Below, piece after piece: positions 4,663-38,410 of a stretch of DNA of 64,000 bases. The stretch spans positions 64,961 through 128,960 of the forward strand of contig CAZVED010000001.1 in the NCBI GenBank assembly GCA_964626205.1, read 5' to 3'. Every line of letters starts with the position of its first letter. Positions within the stretch are counted from its first letter, which is position 1. The notes beneath the pieces are model-generated. The model had not been told where the DNA came from. It ran no database searches and was given only the letters and a program-made list of their open reading frames with translations. The translations under genes were made by a program, and so were the position numbers. The stretch is from an uncultured Gammaproteobacteria bacterium (GTDB lineage Bacteria; Patescibacteriota; Patescibacteriia; SG8-24).

Positions 4663-5040
4663 ATGACTGACCTTCTTCGTTACCGCTCATTCCTGCTCGG
4701 CGCCATGGACCGTGCAGGCGTGAGTCTTGCTGTCGCCGCCTTCACGGTGCTGTTGGGGCACTGGCTTGCCGTTCTCTGGTTCGTCGTTCCCCGTTTAGGG
4801 ACGCTCGACTTCCTCCGGCTGCATTATACCGCCGGTCTTGGCATCGACCGTATCGGCGTTTGGTGGCACATCTTCCTCTATCCCGCGGCAGGATTCATCG
4901 TATTCATCGTGAACGTCCTTTTGTCGGCGGTTGCAGGGAGGAAGCATCGTCTGCTGGGGACGCTTGTGCTTTCCGCGACGGTCGTGGTACAGGTCCTTCT
5001 CGCGGCGGGTGGTATCATTGCCGTCTCATTGAACCGATGA
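4663..5040 (+). CDS. small hypothetical membrane protein (~125 aa)
   Basis: ATG at 4663 follows a TATACT -10 box (4651-4656). Three predicted transmembrane helices. The track ORF from 4465 overlaps the pilB 5' end and is probably an over-extension. Confidence 0.5.
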   Translation: MTDLLRYRSFLLGAMDRAGVSLAVAAFTVLLGHWLAVLWFVVPRLGTLDFLRLHYTAGLGIDRIGVWWHIFLYPAAGFIVFIVNVLLSAVAGRKHRLLGTLVLSATVVVQVLLAAGGIIAVSLNR

Positions 5041-23399: not shown

Positions 23400-23640
23400 T
23401 TTTTTGCTCGCAATATCCTATTTTAGGCGGCCCGTCCGACAGCCCGTCCTGACGCACGATTGCCCGGGCGGGTCTAAAGAAATACCCGCCCTTTGCTCGG
23501 TGATCTTCGTGCGTCAGGCCGTCCTGCCGGACGGGCCGCCAGAGCACCCGCGTGGAATGTGTCATTGCGAGCGGGCTGTACTCAGCCCCGAAGGCCGGGC
23601 TATCATCCTGATTCAATGTAGCCCGGCATCCCGCCCTTAG
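23400..23640. repeat. compound palindromic intergenic element(s), TGTCATTGCGAG family
   Basis: Nested inverted repeats: ggcggcccgtccg...cggacgggccgcc (13 bp), cctgacgcacga...tcgtgcgtcagg (12 bp), inner gggcgggt...acccgccc. Contains tgtgtcattgcgag and gtactcagccccgaag, which recur in the element at 30356-30461. Confidence 0.5.
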
Positions 23641-28296: not shown

Positions 28297-29214
28297 ATGA
28301 CGAACGACGACCACGCCCTGCGCCGTGCTCACGAGCAGGCGTCTGGGCGTGTCTGGGCGTCGTGCGTCGACATGAAAGACGTCGGCAGCTTCGAGGAGTT
28401 CATGGAAACATGGCCGATGTACTGGATGCCACGGAAGGTCGAGGTTGCGCGCATCCTTGCGATCGGGAAACAGATGCAGGCCGCCCGGGGAACGGGCGGT
28501 CCTTTGCGTATTCTCGAGGTCGGCGGAGCGAACGCGGCCCTTGCGGACCTGCTTGTCGGTCTTGCCGAGGAGAACGGTCTCGATGTCGCGTACACCATCG
28601 TTGATCCAGAGGCGGAGACCATGACAGAAGCCGCTATGGCGCATGTCGGCGACCGTCGTTTTTCATTCCATGCTGAAACCGTGGAGCACTTCGTGGCGAA
28701 GCGAGGCCGTGGCGATAGCGAGGATGTGCTTATGGAGGAGTCGCCGGCGTACGACCTCGTCATCAATGCTTGGATGCCGCCGGAGATGGATTTCACCAAG
28801 GATGTCCGTGCTGCGAACGGTGCGGCGATCGTTTATGTCATCGAGACGTGGGGTGGCACCGGAAGCAAAGAGAGCTACGACGGCGGACGGATGTATCGGA
28901 CCGTGGCAGGGTGGGTCGGTCATTCGTTGCCGGAATTGCAACGACAGGACGGTCGAGTAATCGAAGGGGAGCGCAGAGCAGAGTTTTGTAACGCGGTTCT
29001 CATACAGTATCGTCGTGATATCGATGGGGGCGGGCTTCTACCGGACCTGGAGCGCGCGGGCATCGACATGGGGGAGCCGTATCCGTGGGAGGCGGAGCTC
29101 ACGAAGCGACAAGGGGATGTTGCACCAGTGATTCCGCTTGGGGATCGGGAGTATCATGACGACCTGATGGATCTCGTGGAGAGAATGCTCGAACAGCGGA
29201 AAGAAAAGAGGTGA
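28297..29214 (+). CDS. hypothetical protein, possible Rossmann/SAM-MTase-like fold
   Basis: ATG 1 nt after the frr stop. LRILEVGGANAALADLL resembles methyltransferase motif I. Otherwise no diagnostic motifs. Confidence 0.4.
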   Translation: MTNDDHALRRAHEQASGRVWASCVDMKDVGSFEEFMETWPMYWMPRKVEVARILAIGKQMQAARGTGGPLRILEVGGANAALADLLVGLAEENGLDVAYTIVDPEAETMTEAAMAHVGDRRFSFHAETVEHFVAKRGRGDSEDVLMEESPAYDLVINAWMPPEMDFTKDVRAANGAAIVYVIETWGGTGSKESYDGGRMYRTVAGWVGHSLPELQRQDGRVIEGERRAEFCNAVLIQYRRDIDGGGLLPDLERAGIDMGEPYPWEAELTKRQGDVAPVIPLGDREYHDDLMDLVERMLEQRKEKR

Positions 29215-29273: not shown

Positions 29274-29396
29274 CTACTCCCACGGATAGCTTTGGAGAGC
29301 TTCGGGGACATTCGGTAAGTCGCGGACGATGATTTCTTGCTGGAACATCATGCCCGCGACCATACCGAGGAGGAAGACGACGGTGACGGTGCGCAT
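29274..29396 (-). CDS. small hydrophobic peptide (40 aa), translationally coupled to the upstream peptide
   Basis: ATG overlaps the upstream stop (TGATG). Sequence MRTVTVVFLLGMVAGMMFQQEIIVRDLPNVPEALQSYPWE, with one transmembrane helix. Confidence 0.35.
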   Translation of the reverse strand: MRTVTVVFLLGMVAGMMFQQEIIVRDLPNVPEALQSYPWE

Positions 29397-29533
29397 CAGA
29401 ACAGGACTCGCATCACCACGAAGATGGTGGGGATGGAGCAACTGCCGAGCAGGAGGAAGGTCTTCCAGTCGCTGACCGGTTGATAGTCGGCGCGGGTGGT
29501 GCCTTCTTCGAACACGTTCGTGAGATCTGCCAT
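29396..29533 (-). CDS. small membrane peptide (45 aa)
   Basis: Strong AAGGAG Shine-Dalgarno 8 nt before ATG 29533. Sequence MADLTNVFEEGTTRADYQPVSDWKTFLLLGSCSIPTIFVVMRVLF. Below the ORF track's length cutoff. The track's 104-aa ORF is a frame fusion of this and the next peptide. Confidence 0.45.
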   Translation of the reverse strand: MADLTNVFEEGTTRADYQPVSDWKTFLLLGSCSIPTIFVVMRVLF

Positions 29534-29578: not shown

Positions 29579-29607
29579 AATGTATCACATTTTGATGCTT
29601 TTGTCAA
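29579..29607 (-). promoter_or_regulatory. promoter TTGACA-N17-TACATT (extended TGaTACATT) for the two-peptide operon
   Basis: Consensus -35 with exact 17-nt spacer on the minus strand. Confidence 0.5.
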
Positions 29608-29702: not shown

Positions 29703-29731
29703 TTGACAGATTCTCCAATTCGTGCTATAGT
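29703..29731 (+). promoter_or_regulatory. near-consensus sigma70 promoter TTGACA-N17-TGCTATAGT
   Basis: TTGACA at 29703-29708, 17-nt spacer, TATAGT at 29726-29731 with a TGC extension. Confidence 0.6.
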
Positions 29732-29737
29732 CCTTTG

Positions 29738-30178
29738 TCAGGCTCGGAACGCACCTTTGACGAAAGACTCCTCCTGGGAAACGTTATGGAGGGGGACCCC
29801 ATCGGACGCATCGCTTCGGCGAAATGTCCATGGTGATGTGGAACGAGGAAGAGCCCGGTTTCGACTGGGGTCTTCCACGAAGAAGCATCGTTGACCAGAG
29901 CAGCGCTTCGGCGCCCACCTCCGGTTTCCGTCTCCATAACGTTCCTCATGAGTTCGGGCCACGAAAGCCTGTCGGTTGATGTCTGCCATTTGGCCGCCGT
30001 CATTTGGACTTATGAGGATTATTTTTCCACCGCGCCCTGCCACCCACCCCGCTCCCTCATCCTCTCGAAGGCTCTCATGATGGCGGTGCTGACCCCACCG
30101 CGTACCGTGAGATCCTCATCGCTTAGCTGCCGGCCAGGTAGCATCCCCTCCGTTGTCTAGACGGGGGGTGATTTTTTA
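29738..30178 (+). ncRNA. candidate structured non-coding RNA (~440 nt), identity unassigned
   Basis: Promoter-to-terminator unit without a credible ORF. UUCG tetraloop hairpins (catcgc-UUCG-gcgaaa, gcgc-UUCG-gcgc). Terminator stem ccccuccgu/acgggggg at 30145-30168 followed by U6. Confidence 0.45.
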
Positions 30179-30203
30179 TATGGTGTTTTTTGCTCTCGTC
30201 AGC

Positions 30204-30274
30204 GGTCTGTCAGAGAGGGCTTTCGGCAAGGCGGCTCCAACTTTAGCCTCGCCGAAAGCCCTCTCCGACAGACC
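30204..30274. repeat. long palindromic element (24-bp arms, 23/24 matched)
   Basis: ggtctgtcagagagggctttcggc ... gccgaaagccctctccgacagacc with a 23-nt loop. Confidence 0.6.
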
Positions 30275-30355
30275 ACACGAGGCCGCGTCAACTTGATGTC
30301 TCATCCCGTTCCGGTCAGATACAGAGCGAGGATTTTTGCGGACTGCCGTCCCTAC

Positions 30356-30461
30356 TGTGTCATTGCGAGGGTCGACGTACTCGTCGGCCCGAAGCAATCC
30401 CGTTTCGAGATTGCTCGGGATTGCTTCGGGGTCTGAGTACAGACCCACTCGCAATGACACA
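30356..30461. repeat. compound palindromic element with TGTGTCATTGCGAG core
   Basis: Outer 14-bp perfect IR tgtgtcattgcgag/ctcgcaatgacaca. Inner IR gcccgaagcaatcccg/cgggattgcttcgggg (16 bp) and gtactc/gagtac. Shares core and sub-arms with 23560-23600. Confidence 0.6.
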
Positions 30462-30472
30462 ATAAAATAGGC

Positions 30473-30501
30473 TTGAAGGTATCTTTTAAGCGTGTTACTG
30501 T
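30473..30501 (+). promoter_or_regulatory. putative promoter TTGAAG-N17-TACTGT for glyQS, giving a near-leaderless mRNA
   Basis: -10 box ends 10 nt before ATG 30511. No Shine-Dalgarno. Confidence 0.35.
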
Positions 30502-34776: not shown

Positions 34777-34852
34777 GCCACCTTAGCTCAGCTGGTAGAG
34801 CAACACTTTTGTAAAGTGAAGGTCCCGGGTTCGATCCCCGGAGGTGGCTCCA
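34777..34852 (+). tRNA. tRNA-Thr (anticodon UGU)
   Basis: Cloverleaf: acceptor GCCACCU/AGGUGGC, anticodon loop UUUGUAA, T-arm CCGGG-UUCGAUC-CCCGG, CCA encoded. Confidence 0.88.
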
Positions 34853-34902
34853 CTCACGTCCGCGATAAGGTCGACGACAATCGAAAACGGCATTTTTCAC
34901 GT

Positions 34903-34987
34903 GGGCCGGTACCCAAGCGGTCAAAGGGGGCGGACTGTAAATCCGCTGGCATCGCCTTCGAAGGTTCGAATCCTTCCCGTCCCACCA
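34903..34987 (+). tRNA. tRNA-Tyr (anticodon GUA), class II with long variable arm
   Basis: Anticodon stem-loop GCGGA-CUGUAAA-UCCGC, long variable arm, T-arm GAAGG-UUCGAAU-CCUUC, CCA encoded. One C:U mismatch in the acceptor stem. Confidence 0.85.
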
Positions 34988-34990
34988 CAT

Positions 34991-35066
34991 GCCGACGTAG
35001 CTCAGTTGGTAGAGCATCTCCATGGTAAGGAGAAGGTCACCGGTTCGATTCCGGTCGTCGGCTCCA
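34991..35066 (+). tRNA. tRNA-Thr (anticodon GGU)
   Basis: Acceptor GCCGACG/CGUCGGC, anticodon stem-loop UCUCC-AUGGUAA-GGAGA, T-arm ACCGG-UUCGAUU-CCGGU, CCA encoded. Confidence 0.88.
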
Positions 35067-38381: not shown

Positions 38382-38410
38382 TTGACACCTCCGCTTAATA
38401 TGGCTATAGT
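38382..38410 (+). promoter_or_regulatory. consensus sigma70 promoter TTGACA-N17-TATAGT for typA
   Basis: Exact hexamers with 17-nt spacer, 40 nt upstream of ATG 38450. Abuts the right IR arm. Confidence 0.6.

What the first reader, a model, noticed from the sequence alone, without database searches (positions are those of the whole stretch)
29703..30178. Promoter-to-terminator unit of ~440 nt with no ORF: candidate unassigned structured RNA
- **Transcription unit.** A near-consensus promoter (TTGACA 29703-29708, exact 17-nt spacer, TGCTATAGT ending at 29731) drives about 440 nt. The unit ends at a textbook intrinsic terminator: a GC stem at 30145-30168 followed by U6 at 30172-30177.
- **No coding potential.** No frame holds a believable ORF; candidates are only TTG-initiated and R/P/S-rich.
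- **Folded-RNA signatures.** The interval is rich in stable local hairpins, including two C(UUCG)G tetraloops (catcgc-UUCG-gcgaaa near 29825 and gcgc-UUCG-gcgc near 29905). These suggest a folded RNA rather than an untranslated leader.
- **Known RNAs checked.** By eye I looked for the RNase P P4 strands (GGAAAGUCCGG and ACAGAACCCGGCUUA), the tmRNA 5' GGGGnnGAUUCnGGAUUCGACG with its 3' tRNA-like arm and an ...AA-stop tag frame, the SRP domain IV GUCAGGUCCGGAAGGAAGCAGC, and the T-box AAnnnGGGUGGnACCGCG. Only partial resemblances occur (GGUUUCGACUGGGG; GUCAGGCUCGGAAC), so it cannot be assigned to a known family.
- **Context.** It is flanked by a divergent promoter for two tiny membrane peptides and by two long palindromic elements, 330 nt before glyQS.
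Basis: seen in the sequence. Interest (0 to 1): 0.7.

Follow-up and report, generated by a model that had tools for sequence, protein, structure and literature searches.

The report
New structured RNA in CPR bacteria
The flagged stretch is a real, strongly promoted gene for a previously undescribed folded RNA (a ~195-nt four-helix junction) found in a few lineages of ultra-small Patescibacteria, always next to the glycyl-tRNA synthetase gene; its function is still unknown.

Summary
A near-consensus extended -10 promoter (29703-29731) and an intrinsic terminator (30146-30177) bracket about 440 nt with no conserved ORF and no Rfam, tRNA or tmRNA match.

Only the 5' part is the functional unit. 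A 195-nt core (29759-29955) recurs in 10 distinct copies from three deep Patescibacteria lineages. It folds into a 24-bp closing helix P1 and a four-way junction (P2, P3, P4). The fold is well supported: 92% of cells are paired, 35 of 59 pairs show double compensatory changes, and no shuffled or slid control comes near. The 3' 190 nt are as different from the closest relative as shuffled sequence.

All copies lie between frr and glyQS on the glyQS strand. Terminators and unrelated ORFs separate them from glyQS. T-box features are absent.

Best reading: an independently transcribed, compactly folded small RNA of a new family. It probably acts through a protein or RNA partner that recognises the invariant top of P1 and the invariant P3 apex. 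A cis-acting leader role for the downstream cargo cannot be excluded. The result is a new RNA family of unknown function.

The parts
29703..29731 (+). Promoter: -35 TTGACA, 17-nt spacer, extended -10 TGcTATAGT
   Evidence: 11/12, TG. One of the two best sites in the window. The same TTGAC(A/G)-17-TGnTAnnnT design precedes the RNA in L081, L082, L159, L162, L163, L165 and L170.
29738..29769 (+). 5' leader from the inferred transcription start (~29738) to the base of P1; weakly conserved
   Evidence: The start site is inferred from the promoter position only. Alignments.
29759..29955 (+). Conserved RNA core: a four-way junction closed by a long helix P1. This is the family-defining unit.
   Evidence: Covariance-model match of 162.9 bits, E about 1e-41. 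Covariation. Identity to L081 is 81%, and 93% for 29840-29947, against 77% for frr and 76% for the M16 peptidase gene.
29770..29795 (+). P1 5' strand. Lower part 29770-29784 covaries. Top part 29787-29795 is UGGAGGGGG, invariant in 9 of the 10 copies (GGAGGAGG in the 10th, L163 copy A). It includes the AUG at 29786-29788.
29799..29833 (+). P2 hairpin (UUCG loop at 29815-29818)
29835..29889 (+). P3, a long arm with an internal loop. The apex 29854-29869 contains the invariant CGGU-UNCG-ACUG.
   Evidence: Arm length is constant at 24-26 nt per strand in all 10 copies.
29893..29926 (+). P4 hairpin with an internal loop (UUCG loop at 29907-29910)
29928..29953 (+). P1 3' strand. The top, CCGUCUCCA (29928-29936), is invariant. 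The lower part (29939-29953) covaries.
29956..30145 (+). Non-conserved 3' tail of the transcript. It is replaced by unrelated sequence or by ORFs in other members.
   Evidence: 50.5% identity to L081, the same as shuffled sequence. No relic of ORF-X or the L082 ORF.
30146..30177 (+). Intrinsic terminator (9-bp stem, U run)
   Evidence: Counterpart in L081 at 4754-4777.

Best explanation
29703-30177 is an independent transcription unit for a new family of structured non-coding RNA in Patescibacteria (CPR).

What is shown:
- A strong sigma-70-type promoter drives a transcript whose first ~215 nt contain a 195-nt core.
- The core has a 24-bp closing helix P1. Its top nine positions (UGGAGG.G.GG / CC.G.UCUCCA, with a G.G mismatch) are invariant in 9 of 10 copies; the 10th has a paired G-to-A change at the mismatch.
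- P1 closes a tight four-way junction with three arms: P2, P3 and P4.
- Arm lengths are fixed to within 1-2 nt while the sequences covary.
- The 3' tail is dispensable and ends at an intrinsic terminator.

What is inferred:
- The RNA works as a self-contained, compactly folded molecule rather than as a switch.
- P3 (24-26 nt per strand) is as long as P1 is from the junction to its invariant U-A/C-G pairs (24 nt). The invariant P3 apex could therefore pack against the base of P1.
- The invariant top of P1 and the P3 apex are the likely recognition surfaces for a partner, either a protein forming an RNP or another RNA.
- The long P1 could also serve as a processing stem that frees the core from its variable 3' sequence.

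Its fixed place between frr and glyQS suggests a link to translation or tRNA-Gly biology. It is not the attenuator of glyQS.
For: Real RNA on the + strand:
- Promoter and terminator are present.
- Fold z = -3.1 on the + strand, -0.7 on the - strand.
- Model scores are 160-188 bits on the + strand and 32-53 bits on the reverse strand.
- Two G.U pairs are invariant.

Conserved structure:
- 10 distinct copies, 92.4% of cells paired, 35/59 pairs with double changes.
- 0/500 shuffles reach this. Slid controls give 39-52% paired.
- Copies not used for the model, and not found by the motif pattern, were recovered: L163 copy A, L168 and L170.
- 651 kb of control loci gave no false hit.

Core versus tail:
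- Core 81-93% identical to L081. Tail at shuffled level.

Not a glyQS leader:
- A terminator follows the RNA or its cargo in the window, L081 and L165. In L163, L162 and L168 a terminator-like hairpin was seen by eye only; the scan of L163 did not flag it.
- Different, unrelated ORFs sit between the RNA and glyQS in L082 and in the L162/L165 clade.
- A TTGAA(G/C)-17-TA.... site lies just upstream of glyQS in the window and L081, and also in the RNA-less L084.

Not a switch:
- P1 is 24 bp and does not overlap any terminator.

Rigid architecture:
- P1 is 24/24 nt and P3 is 24-26 nt in all copies.

Not housekeeping:
- Absent from 86 other glyQS loci, including closer relatives.
Against: - No transcript data and no partner are known. 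'Protein- or RNA-binding scaffold' is inference from the conservation pattern only.
- In 7 of 10 copies the RNA lies in the 5' UTR of an ORF. One locus has two abutting copies under one promoter. Both are typical of cis-regulators.
- In L165 the P1 3' strand GUCUCCAG has a perfect alternative partner, CUGGAGAC, next to the ORF-X ribosome-binding site (seen by eye).
- Four members were found with a pattern that required the three motifs, so part of the 'invariance' is ascertainment. The window and five members found independently do keep them.
- The alignment used for pair counts was fitted to the model, which favours the structure.
Confidence: 0.5

Rival explanations
1. Cis-acting 5' leader (a riboswitch-like or protein-responsive element). 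It would control the genes that follow it: ORF-X in one clade, another ORF in L082, and read-through into glyQS where only a terminator follows.
For: - Always upstream of, and co-oriented with, downstream genes and glyQS. This holds in the three lineages found by a scan that did not use context.
- Tandem copies abut under a single promoter in L163.
- A terminator lies downstream in the window and L081, with a by-eye candidate in L163.
- The terminator 5' strand in the window (CCCCUCCGU) could pair with the P1 5' strand AUGGAGGGGG. L165 has an alternative GUCUCCAG/CUGGAGAC pairing beside a ribosome-binding site (both seen by eye).
Against: - P1 is 24 bp, far too stable for a ligand-tipped switch.
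- No conserved expression platform. The sequence after P1 is unrelated between clades, and even between the window and L081.
- The terminator-like hairpin in L163 does not overlap P1.
- Junction linkers are short and variable, so there is no obvious ligand pocket.
- The core is under purifying selection in lineages with no downstream ORF.
- The downstream ORFs are unrelated to each other.
Confidence: 0.28
2. tRNA-Gly-related RNA. It would be either a T-box analogue or decoy that pairs with the tRNA-Gly 3' end through UGGA, or a tRNA-like cloverleaf bound by GlyRS for feedback.
For: - Fixed neighbourhood of glyQS.
- Junction linker lengths of about 2-3, 1, 3 and 1 resemble a cloverleaf.
- The top of P1 pairs UGGA with UCCA. 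The 3' strand CCGUCUCCA resembles a bacterial tRNA-Gly 3' end. That resemblance comes from memory and was not tested.
- CPR glyQS loci otherwise lack T-boxes.
Against: - No T-box sequence on the + strand. No RF00230 or tRNA hit at E<=10.
- The only invariant GGN triplet is base-paired at the base of P2, so it is not a displayed specifier.
- The P2 and P4 loops are mostly UUCG caps, so no D/T-loop elbow. There is no anticodon-like NCC loop.
- The alternative tRNA-Ala/tmRNA-like acceptor pairing GGGGAY/GUCUCC is broken in L163 copy A.
- glyQS is separated from the RNA by terminators.
- No CPR tRNA-Gly was available for comparison.
Confidence: 0.1
3. RNA component of an accessory or mobile module inserted at the frr-glyQS spacer. 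Examples would be an RNA antitoxin or a scaffold RNA working with the variable downstream cargo.
For: - Patchy distribution: three lineages with GlyRS only 53-60% identical to each other, while closer relatives lack it.
- It has its own strong promoter.
- Variable cargo lies directly downstream (ORF-X, the L082 ORF, or none).
- The spacer also carries other lineage-specific insertions: a 305-aa ORF, tiny ORFs and palindromic repeats.
Against: - No transposase, integrase, reverse transcriptase or nuclease is nearby.
- No flanking direct repeats were noticed.
- No hits in viral contigs.
- The RNA persists without any cargo in the window, L081 and L163.
Confidence: 0.08
4. A very divergent copy of a known housekeeping RNA (6S, SRP, RNase P, tmRNA or Y RNA). 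Alternatively, not an RNA at all, but a small protein gene or a DNA palindrome.
For: - Its size (~195 nt), strong promoter and long closing stem recall 6S and Y RNAs.
- An invariant AUG sits at 29786.
Against: - No Rfam hit in any of 7 loci at E<=10. ARAGORN is negative.
- A tight four-way junction is incompatible with the 6S rod-plus-bubble.
- The patchy distribution argues against a housekeeping RNA.
- ORFs from the AUG run 10-55 codons and are unrelated after residue 5.
- Strand asymmetry from G.U pairs, and reverse-strand scores more than 100 bits lower, argue against a DNA palindrome.
Confidence: 0.04

Closest known systems
Orphan structured bacterial ncRNAs such as the raiA motif RNA (also OLE, ROOL, GOLLD)
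   Same: Promoter-to-terminator unit, multi-helix junction with strong covariation, conserved arm lengths and a few invariant segments. Recurrent placement beside translation-related genes without being their obvious attenuator. Function unknown.
   Different: No sequence or structure match to any of them in Rfam 15. Restricted to a few Patescibacteria lineages. Different architecture: a 24-bp P1 plus a four-way junction, with no supported pseudoknot.
T-box riboswitch (glyQS T-box of Firmicutes)
   Same: Lies upstream of, and co-oriented with, a glycyl-tRNA synthetase gene. Tandem copies occur. It contains UGGA, the motif that pairs with the UCCA end of tRNA-Gly in glyQS T-boxes (from established knowledge).
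   Different: No T-box sequence, no specifier loop, no antiterminator/terminator alternative and no Rfam hit. Terminators and unrelated ORFs separate it from glyQS.
Y RNA / YrlA-type RNAs (Ro/Rsr-bound)
   Same: A long stem formed by the 5' and 3' parts, with an invariant helical segment carrying a mismatch next to a multi-helix module. This is a plausible protein-binding design.
   Different: No rsr/TROVE gene is adjacent. No T-loop/D-loop tRNA-like module. No Rfam Y RNA hit.
Tandem riboswitches (glycine, tandem T-boxes)
   Same: Two complete, diverged copies abut head-to-tail in one transcript in L163.
   Different: Single copy in every other member. No conserved ligand-pocket nucleotides in the junction. 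No expression platform.

Membership tests
T-box riboswitch (RF00230) | Conserved T-box sequence (..GGGUGGNACCGCG..) forming the antiterminator bulge | tested here: not met
   No match with <=3 mismatches on the + strand within 29738-30178. No RF00230 hit at E<=10 in the window or in 6 homologous loci.
T-box riboswitch (RF00230) | Stem I with a specifier loop displaying the cognate codon (GGN for Gly) | tested here: not met
   The only invariant GGN (window 29832-29834) is base-paired at the base of P2. The P3 internal loop has no conserved GGN.
T-box riboswitch (RF00230) | Mutually exclusive terminator (or sequestrator) and antiterminator directly upstream of the regulated gene | tested here: not met
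   Terminators do not overlap the conserved core. A 190-nt unrelated tail or an ORF intervenes.
tmRNA | tRNA-like domain (acceptor stem with G3.U70, T arm adjacent to the 3' strand, CCA) plus a tag reading frame | tested here: not met
   ARAGORN is negative and there is no Rfam hit. No T arm precedes CCGUCUCCA. The GGGGAY/GUCUCC pairing is broken in L163 copy A.
RNase P RNA | P4 helix from CR-I (GGAAAGUCC) and CR-V (ACAGAA..GGCUUA); length above about 300 nt | tested here: not met
   No Rfam hit at E<=10. The core is 195 nt. GAGGAAGAGCCCGG occurs only in the window clade. The patchy distribution is incompatible with an essential RNA.
6S RNA | Rod-like helix with a large central bubble, with no multi-way junction | tested here: not met
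   Covariation supports a four-way junction with linkers of 1-3 nt. No RF00013 hit.
Metabolite riboswitch (generic) | Conserved unpaired nucleotides forming a pocket, and a short P1 coupled to an expression platform | tested here: inconclusive
   Invariant nucleotides sit in helical segments (top of P1, P3 apex). The linkers vary, P1 is 24 bp, and no conserved platform exists. Ligand binding itself is not testable with these tools.
tRNA / tRNA-like cloverleaf | 7-bp acceptor stem, D and T loops forming the elbow, anticodon loop | tested here: not met
   No RF00005 hit and no ARAGORN hit. The P2 and P4 loops are mostly UUCG caps. Only the junction linker lengths resemble a cloverleaf.
Y RNA (Ro/Rsr-associated) | Adjacent rsr (TROVE) gene and a Ro-binding stem | tested here: inconclusive
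   The adjacent genes are frr, a 305-aa ORF without Pfam match, two tiny ORFs and glyQS. The rest of the genome could not be searched.
New family defined here (model R2) | 24-bp P1 with top UGGAGG.G.GG/CC.G.UCUCCA, a four-way junction, P3 apex CGGU-UNCG-ACUG, located between frr and glyQS | tested here: met
   Window 29759-29955 scores 162.6 bits with R2. All features are present.

The most novel reading that the evidence does not exclude
The core is a new class of functional RNA specific to a subset of CPR bacteria, with a compact four-helix fold and a dedicated activity. It could be the RNA subunit of an unknown ribonucleoprotein, or a new sensor of the tRNA-Gly 3' end or of a metabolite. 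That activity would explain why it is kept beside glyQS in lineages whose GlyRS proteins are only 53-60% identical.
Probability: 0.3. Interest if true: 0.8.

Novelty: new variant of a known kind. Interest (0 to 1): 0.62.

Why it matters
Patescibacteria (CPR) are a large, mostly uncultured part of bacterial diversity. My literature searches found no description of structured regulatory or catalytic RNAs in them. This is a well-supported new RNA family: strong covariation, fixed helix lengths and invariant segments, driven by one of the strongest promoters in the window. It is tied by position to the translation genes frr and glyQS.

If it proves to be an RNP subunit, a tRNA-related regulator or a riboswitch, it would add a new class of functional RNA. 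It would also give a handle on gene control in organisms with minimal regulatory repertoires. Even as an orphan it is ready for deposition as a new RNA family and for metatranscriptome checks.

Tried and rejected
- **Known families.** Rfam at gathering scores and at E<=10 on the window and on six homologous loci gave only spurious miRNA hits on neighbouring palindromes.
- **tmRNA or tRNA.** ARAGORN is negative. The acceptor-like pairing GGGGAY/GUCUCC was rejected because L163 copy A breaks it while keeping P1.
- **T-box.** No T-box motif. The invariant GGN is paired. Sixteen other CPR glyQS loci have no T-box either.
- **Simple glyQS leader.** Rejected because terminators, unrelated ORFs and a separate promoter-like site lie between the RNA and glyQS.
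- **Tail as a decayed ORF-X.** tblastn found nothing. The L082 ORF and ORF-X are unrelated.
- **Direct sequence search.** nhmmer against 80 genome loci found nothing.
- **Viral contigs.** A 17-base pattern gave 70 chance hits, all rejected by the covariance model. A stricter pattern gave none.
- **Pseudoknots.** A mutual-information scan for extra pairs gave only phylogenetic noise.
- **Conserved small ORF.** Rejected.
- **Literature.** Four look-ups found no description of this element.

Full report
**1. The observation**

- The promoter scan finds TTGACA-17-TATAGT at 29703-29731, scoring 11/12 with a TG extension.
- The terminator is a 9-bp stem at 30146-30168 followed by a T run.
- My own scan of the whole 64-kb window finds only five sites with >=10/12 matches on either strand. 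This site is one of the two best.
- ORFs in the interval are short, mostly GTG/TTG-initiated and compositionally odd.
- Rfam 15 has no match at gathering scores or at E<=10. ARAGORN sees no tRNA or tmRNA.
- The + strand folds better than dinucleotide shuffles (z = -3.1). The - strand does not (z = -0.7).

**2. Source organism**

The flanking GlyRS places the window in Patescibacteria/CPR. Its best relatives among species-representative genomes are Patescibacteria MAGs with at most 66% amino-acid identity. The window has 57-64% G+C.

**3. Relatives found through synteny**

GlyRS homologues led to two contigs with the same gene order.
- L081 has GlyRS 91% identical to the window's. L082 has 77%.
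- In L081 the promoter and the first ~215 transcribed nucleotides align well, and the stretch matching window 29840-29947 is almost invariant. The following ~190 nt do not align, yet a terminator is again present.
- Quantitatively, the core is 81% identical (93% in its 3' half). For comparison, frr is 77%, the M16 peptidase gene 76% and glyQS 87%. The tail is 50.5% identical, and shuffled sequence gives 49.8%.
- L082 has the same promoter design and the same three motifs, with compensatory changes in the hairpins.
- More distant relatives (GlyRS 68-73%: L084-L088) have frr directly abutting glyQS.

**4. Enlarging the family**

- One metagenome scan used a three-motif pattern and returned nine contigs. 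By reading the sequences, five are true homologues: L159, L162, L163, L165 and L167, where L167 duplicates L163. A covariance model confirmed this.
- The model also found a second, diverged copy directly abutting the first in L163 (129 bits). It found nothing in 80 CPR/Fibrobacter glyQS loci or in L084-L088.
- Homologues of the ORF that follows the RNA in L162 led to two further members, L168 and L170.
- A second model built from all ten distinct copies again found only the window copy among 86 other glyQS loci.
- Neither model hit 651 kb of unrelated control loci. A motif scan of viral contigs was empty.
- Caveat: four members were found by a pattern that required the motifs, so their invariance is partly ascertainment. 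L081, L082, L163 copy A, L168 and L170 were found independently. All keep the motifs except copy A, which has GGAGGAGG / CCAUCUCC.

**5. Structure**

On the ten-sequence alignment the consensus has 59 pairs in seven helices.
- 92.4% of cells form standard pairs, and 35 pairs show changes on both sides. 0/500 column shuffles reach any measure.
- Sliding the 3' partners by 1-3 columns drops pairing to 39-52% and double changes to 6-16 pairs.
- The alignment was fitted to the model, which favours the structure. However, RNAalifold on plain MAFFT alignments predicted the same helices.

In window coordinates:

| Element | Coordinates |
|---|---|
| P1 | 29770-29795 paired with 29928-29953 |
| P2 | 29799-29833 |
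| P3 | 29835-29889 |
| P4 | 29893-29926 |

- Linkers in the window are 3, 1, 3 and 1 nt (2-3, 1, 3 and 1 across the family).
- The top of P1 is invariant: UGGAGG.G.GG pairs with CC.G.UCUCCA around a G.G mismatch. In L163 copy A the mismatch becomes A.A on both strands.
- The P3 apex CGGU-UNCG-ACUG is invariant, apart from the variable loop position N.
- Two pairs at the base of P1 (U-A and C-G) are invariant or nearly so.
- Lengths are rigid. P1 is 24 nt on each strand from the junction to that U-A pair in all ten copies. P3 is 24-25 and 25-26 nt. From this I infer, but cannot show, that P3 lies alongside P1 and its apex contacts the base of P1.
- Invariant G.U pairs and reverse-strand scores more than 100 bits lower fix the strand. 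They also argue against a DNA-level palindrome.
- No ORF is conserved. The invariant AUG at 29786 opens frames of 10-55 codons that are unrelated after five residues.

**6. Context**

Every copy lies upstream of glyQS on its strand, between frr and glyQS wherever the upstream gene is held in the contig. This includes the three lineages found by the context-blind scan. Those lineages are deep: their GlyRS proteins are 53-60% identical between clades.

The RNA is nevertheless not a plain glyQS leader. What follows the core differs between members:
- **Window and L081:** a non-homologous ~190-nt tail, then a terminator.
- **L163:** two abutting copies, then a terminator-like hairpin immediately after. 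I saw this by eye; the scan did not flag it.
- **L162/L159/L168/L170/L165 clade:** a 124-160-aa hypothetical protein (ORF-X). It is followed by a terminator in L165 and by a by-eye terminator-like hairpin in L162 and L168.
- **L082:** an unrelated 139-aa ORF.

A TTGAA(G/C)-17-TA.... site sits just upstream of glyQS in the window (30473-30501), in L081 and in the RNA-less L084 (by eye). This suggests that glyQS keeps its own promoter.

ORF-X gave no functional clue.
- It has no Pfam match and only 12 homologues.
- The AlphaFold model has pLDDT 76.

**7. Known families**

T-box features were tested and not met.
- No T-box sequence.
- No displayed Gly codon: the invariant GGN is paired.
- No overlapping terminator/antiterminator.

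Sixteen other CPR glyQS loci have no T-box either. tmRNA, RNase P RNA, 6S RNA and tRNA also fail their defining features (see the membership table). Searches of the held literature found no description of this element.

**8. Interpretation**

Shown: this is a genuine new family of structured RNA, independently transcribed from a strong promoter. It has a rigid four-helix core under purifying selection and a dispensable 3' region.

Inferred: it acts as a folded, self-contained molecule. The invariant helical segment at the top of P1 and the P3 apex are recognition sites for a partner. The long P1 may double as a processing stem.

The cis-regulatory alternative keeps real weight, about 0.3. The points in its favour are the 5'-UTR position in 7 of 10 copies, the tandem copies, and some possible alternative pairings. 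Against it stand the 24-bp P1, the lack of any conserved expression platform, and conservation of the core where nothing but a terminator follows.

A tRNA-Gly-related role is an attractive lead. The UGGA/UCCA pairing, the cloverleaf-like linkers and the glyQS neighbourhood point that way. It rests partly on memory and could not be tested, because no CPR tRNA-Gly was available.

**9. Verdict**

Novelty: a new RNA family with no detectable relative, belonging to the known broad category of orphan structured bacterial ncRNAs. The mechanism is unresolved. Interest is moderate to high.

Noticed in passing
window 30199-30280 and about 30340-30460; also L163 4450-4505, 5040-5170, 5725-5840, 7953-8032: Long, near-perfect palindromic elements sit between the RNA terminator and glyQS. 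One has 29-nt arms, 93% complementary, at 30204-30274. Similar long hairpins litter the related contig L163 and appear as spurious miRNA hits in Rfam. They are probably a REP/MITE-like repeat family of these genomes. L081 lacks them at this site.
   Followed up: partly
window 29579-29607 (-), 29396-29533 (-), 29274-29396 (-): A divergent promoter-like site (10/12, TG) faces away from the RNA promoter. It is followed by two tiny hydrophobic ORFs (about 45 and 40 aa). Both the promoter and two small called genes are conserved in L081 (3845-4182). No Pfam match.
   Followed up: partly
window 28297-29214 (+): A 305-aa ORF starts 2 nt after the frr stop codon. It has no Pfam match and is absent from the closest relative L081. 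It is a lineage-specific insertion in the same frr-glyQS spacer.
   Followed up: partly
[not shown]
   Followed up: yes
L162 1634-1651 and the identical stretch in L168: A hairpin plus U run ends only about 8 nt before the glyQS start codon. It could be an attenuator or part of the glyQS promoter region in that clade.
   Followed up: no
window 29786-29788: An invariant AUG is embedded in the top of P1. It opens ORFs of 10-55 codons whose sequence and length are not conserved beyond ME(G/E)(D/A/E). There is no consistent ribosome-binding site upstream.
   Followed up: yes
window 38382-38410 (+): The only other 11/12 promoter-like site in the 64-kb window (TTGACA-17-TATAGT). What it drives was not examined.
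   Followed up: no
window 23426-23540: Another inverted repeat with 34-nt arms, 88% complementary, 47 nt apart.
   Followed up: no
window 34777-35066; L001, L037, L085, L165, L168 and others: A tRNA cluster Thr(UGU)-Tyr(GUA)-Thr(GGU) lies about 3 kb downstream of glyQS. It is conserved in position across many CPR loci. No tRNA-Gly is found in any held locus.
   Followed up: partly
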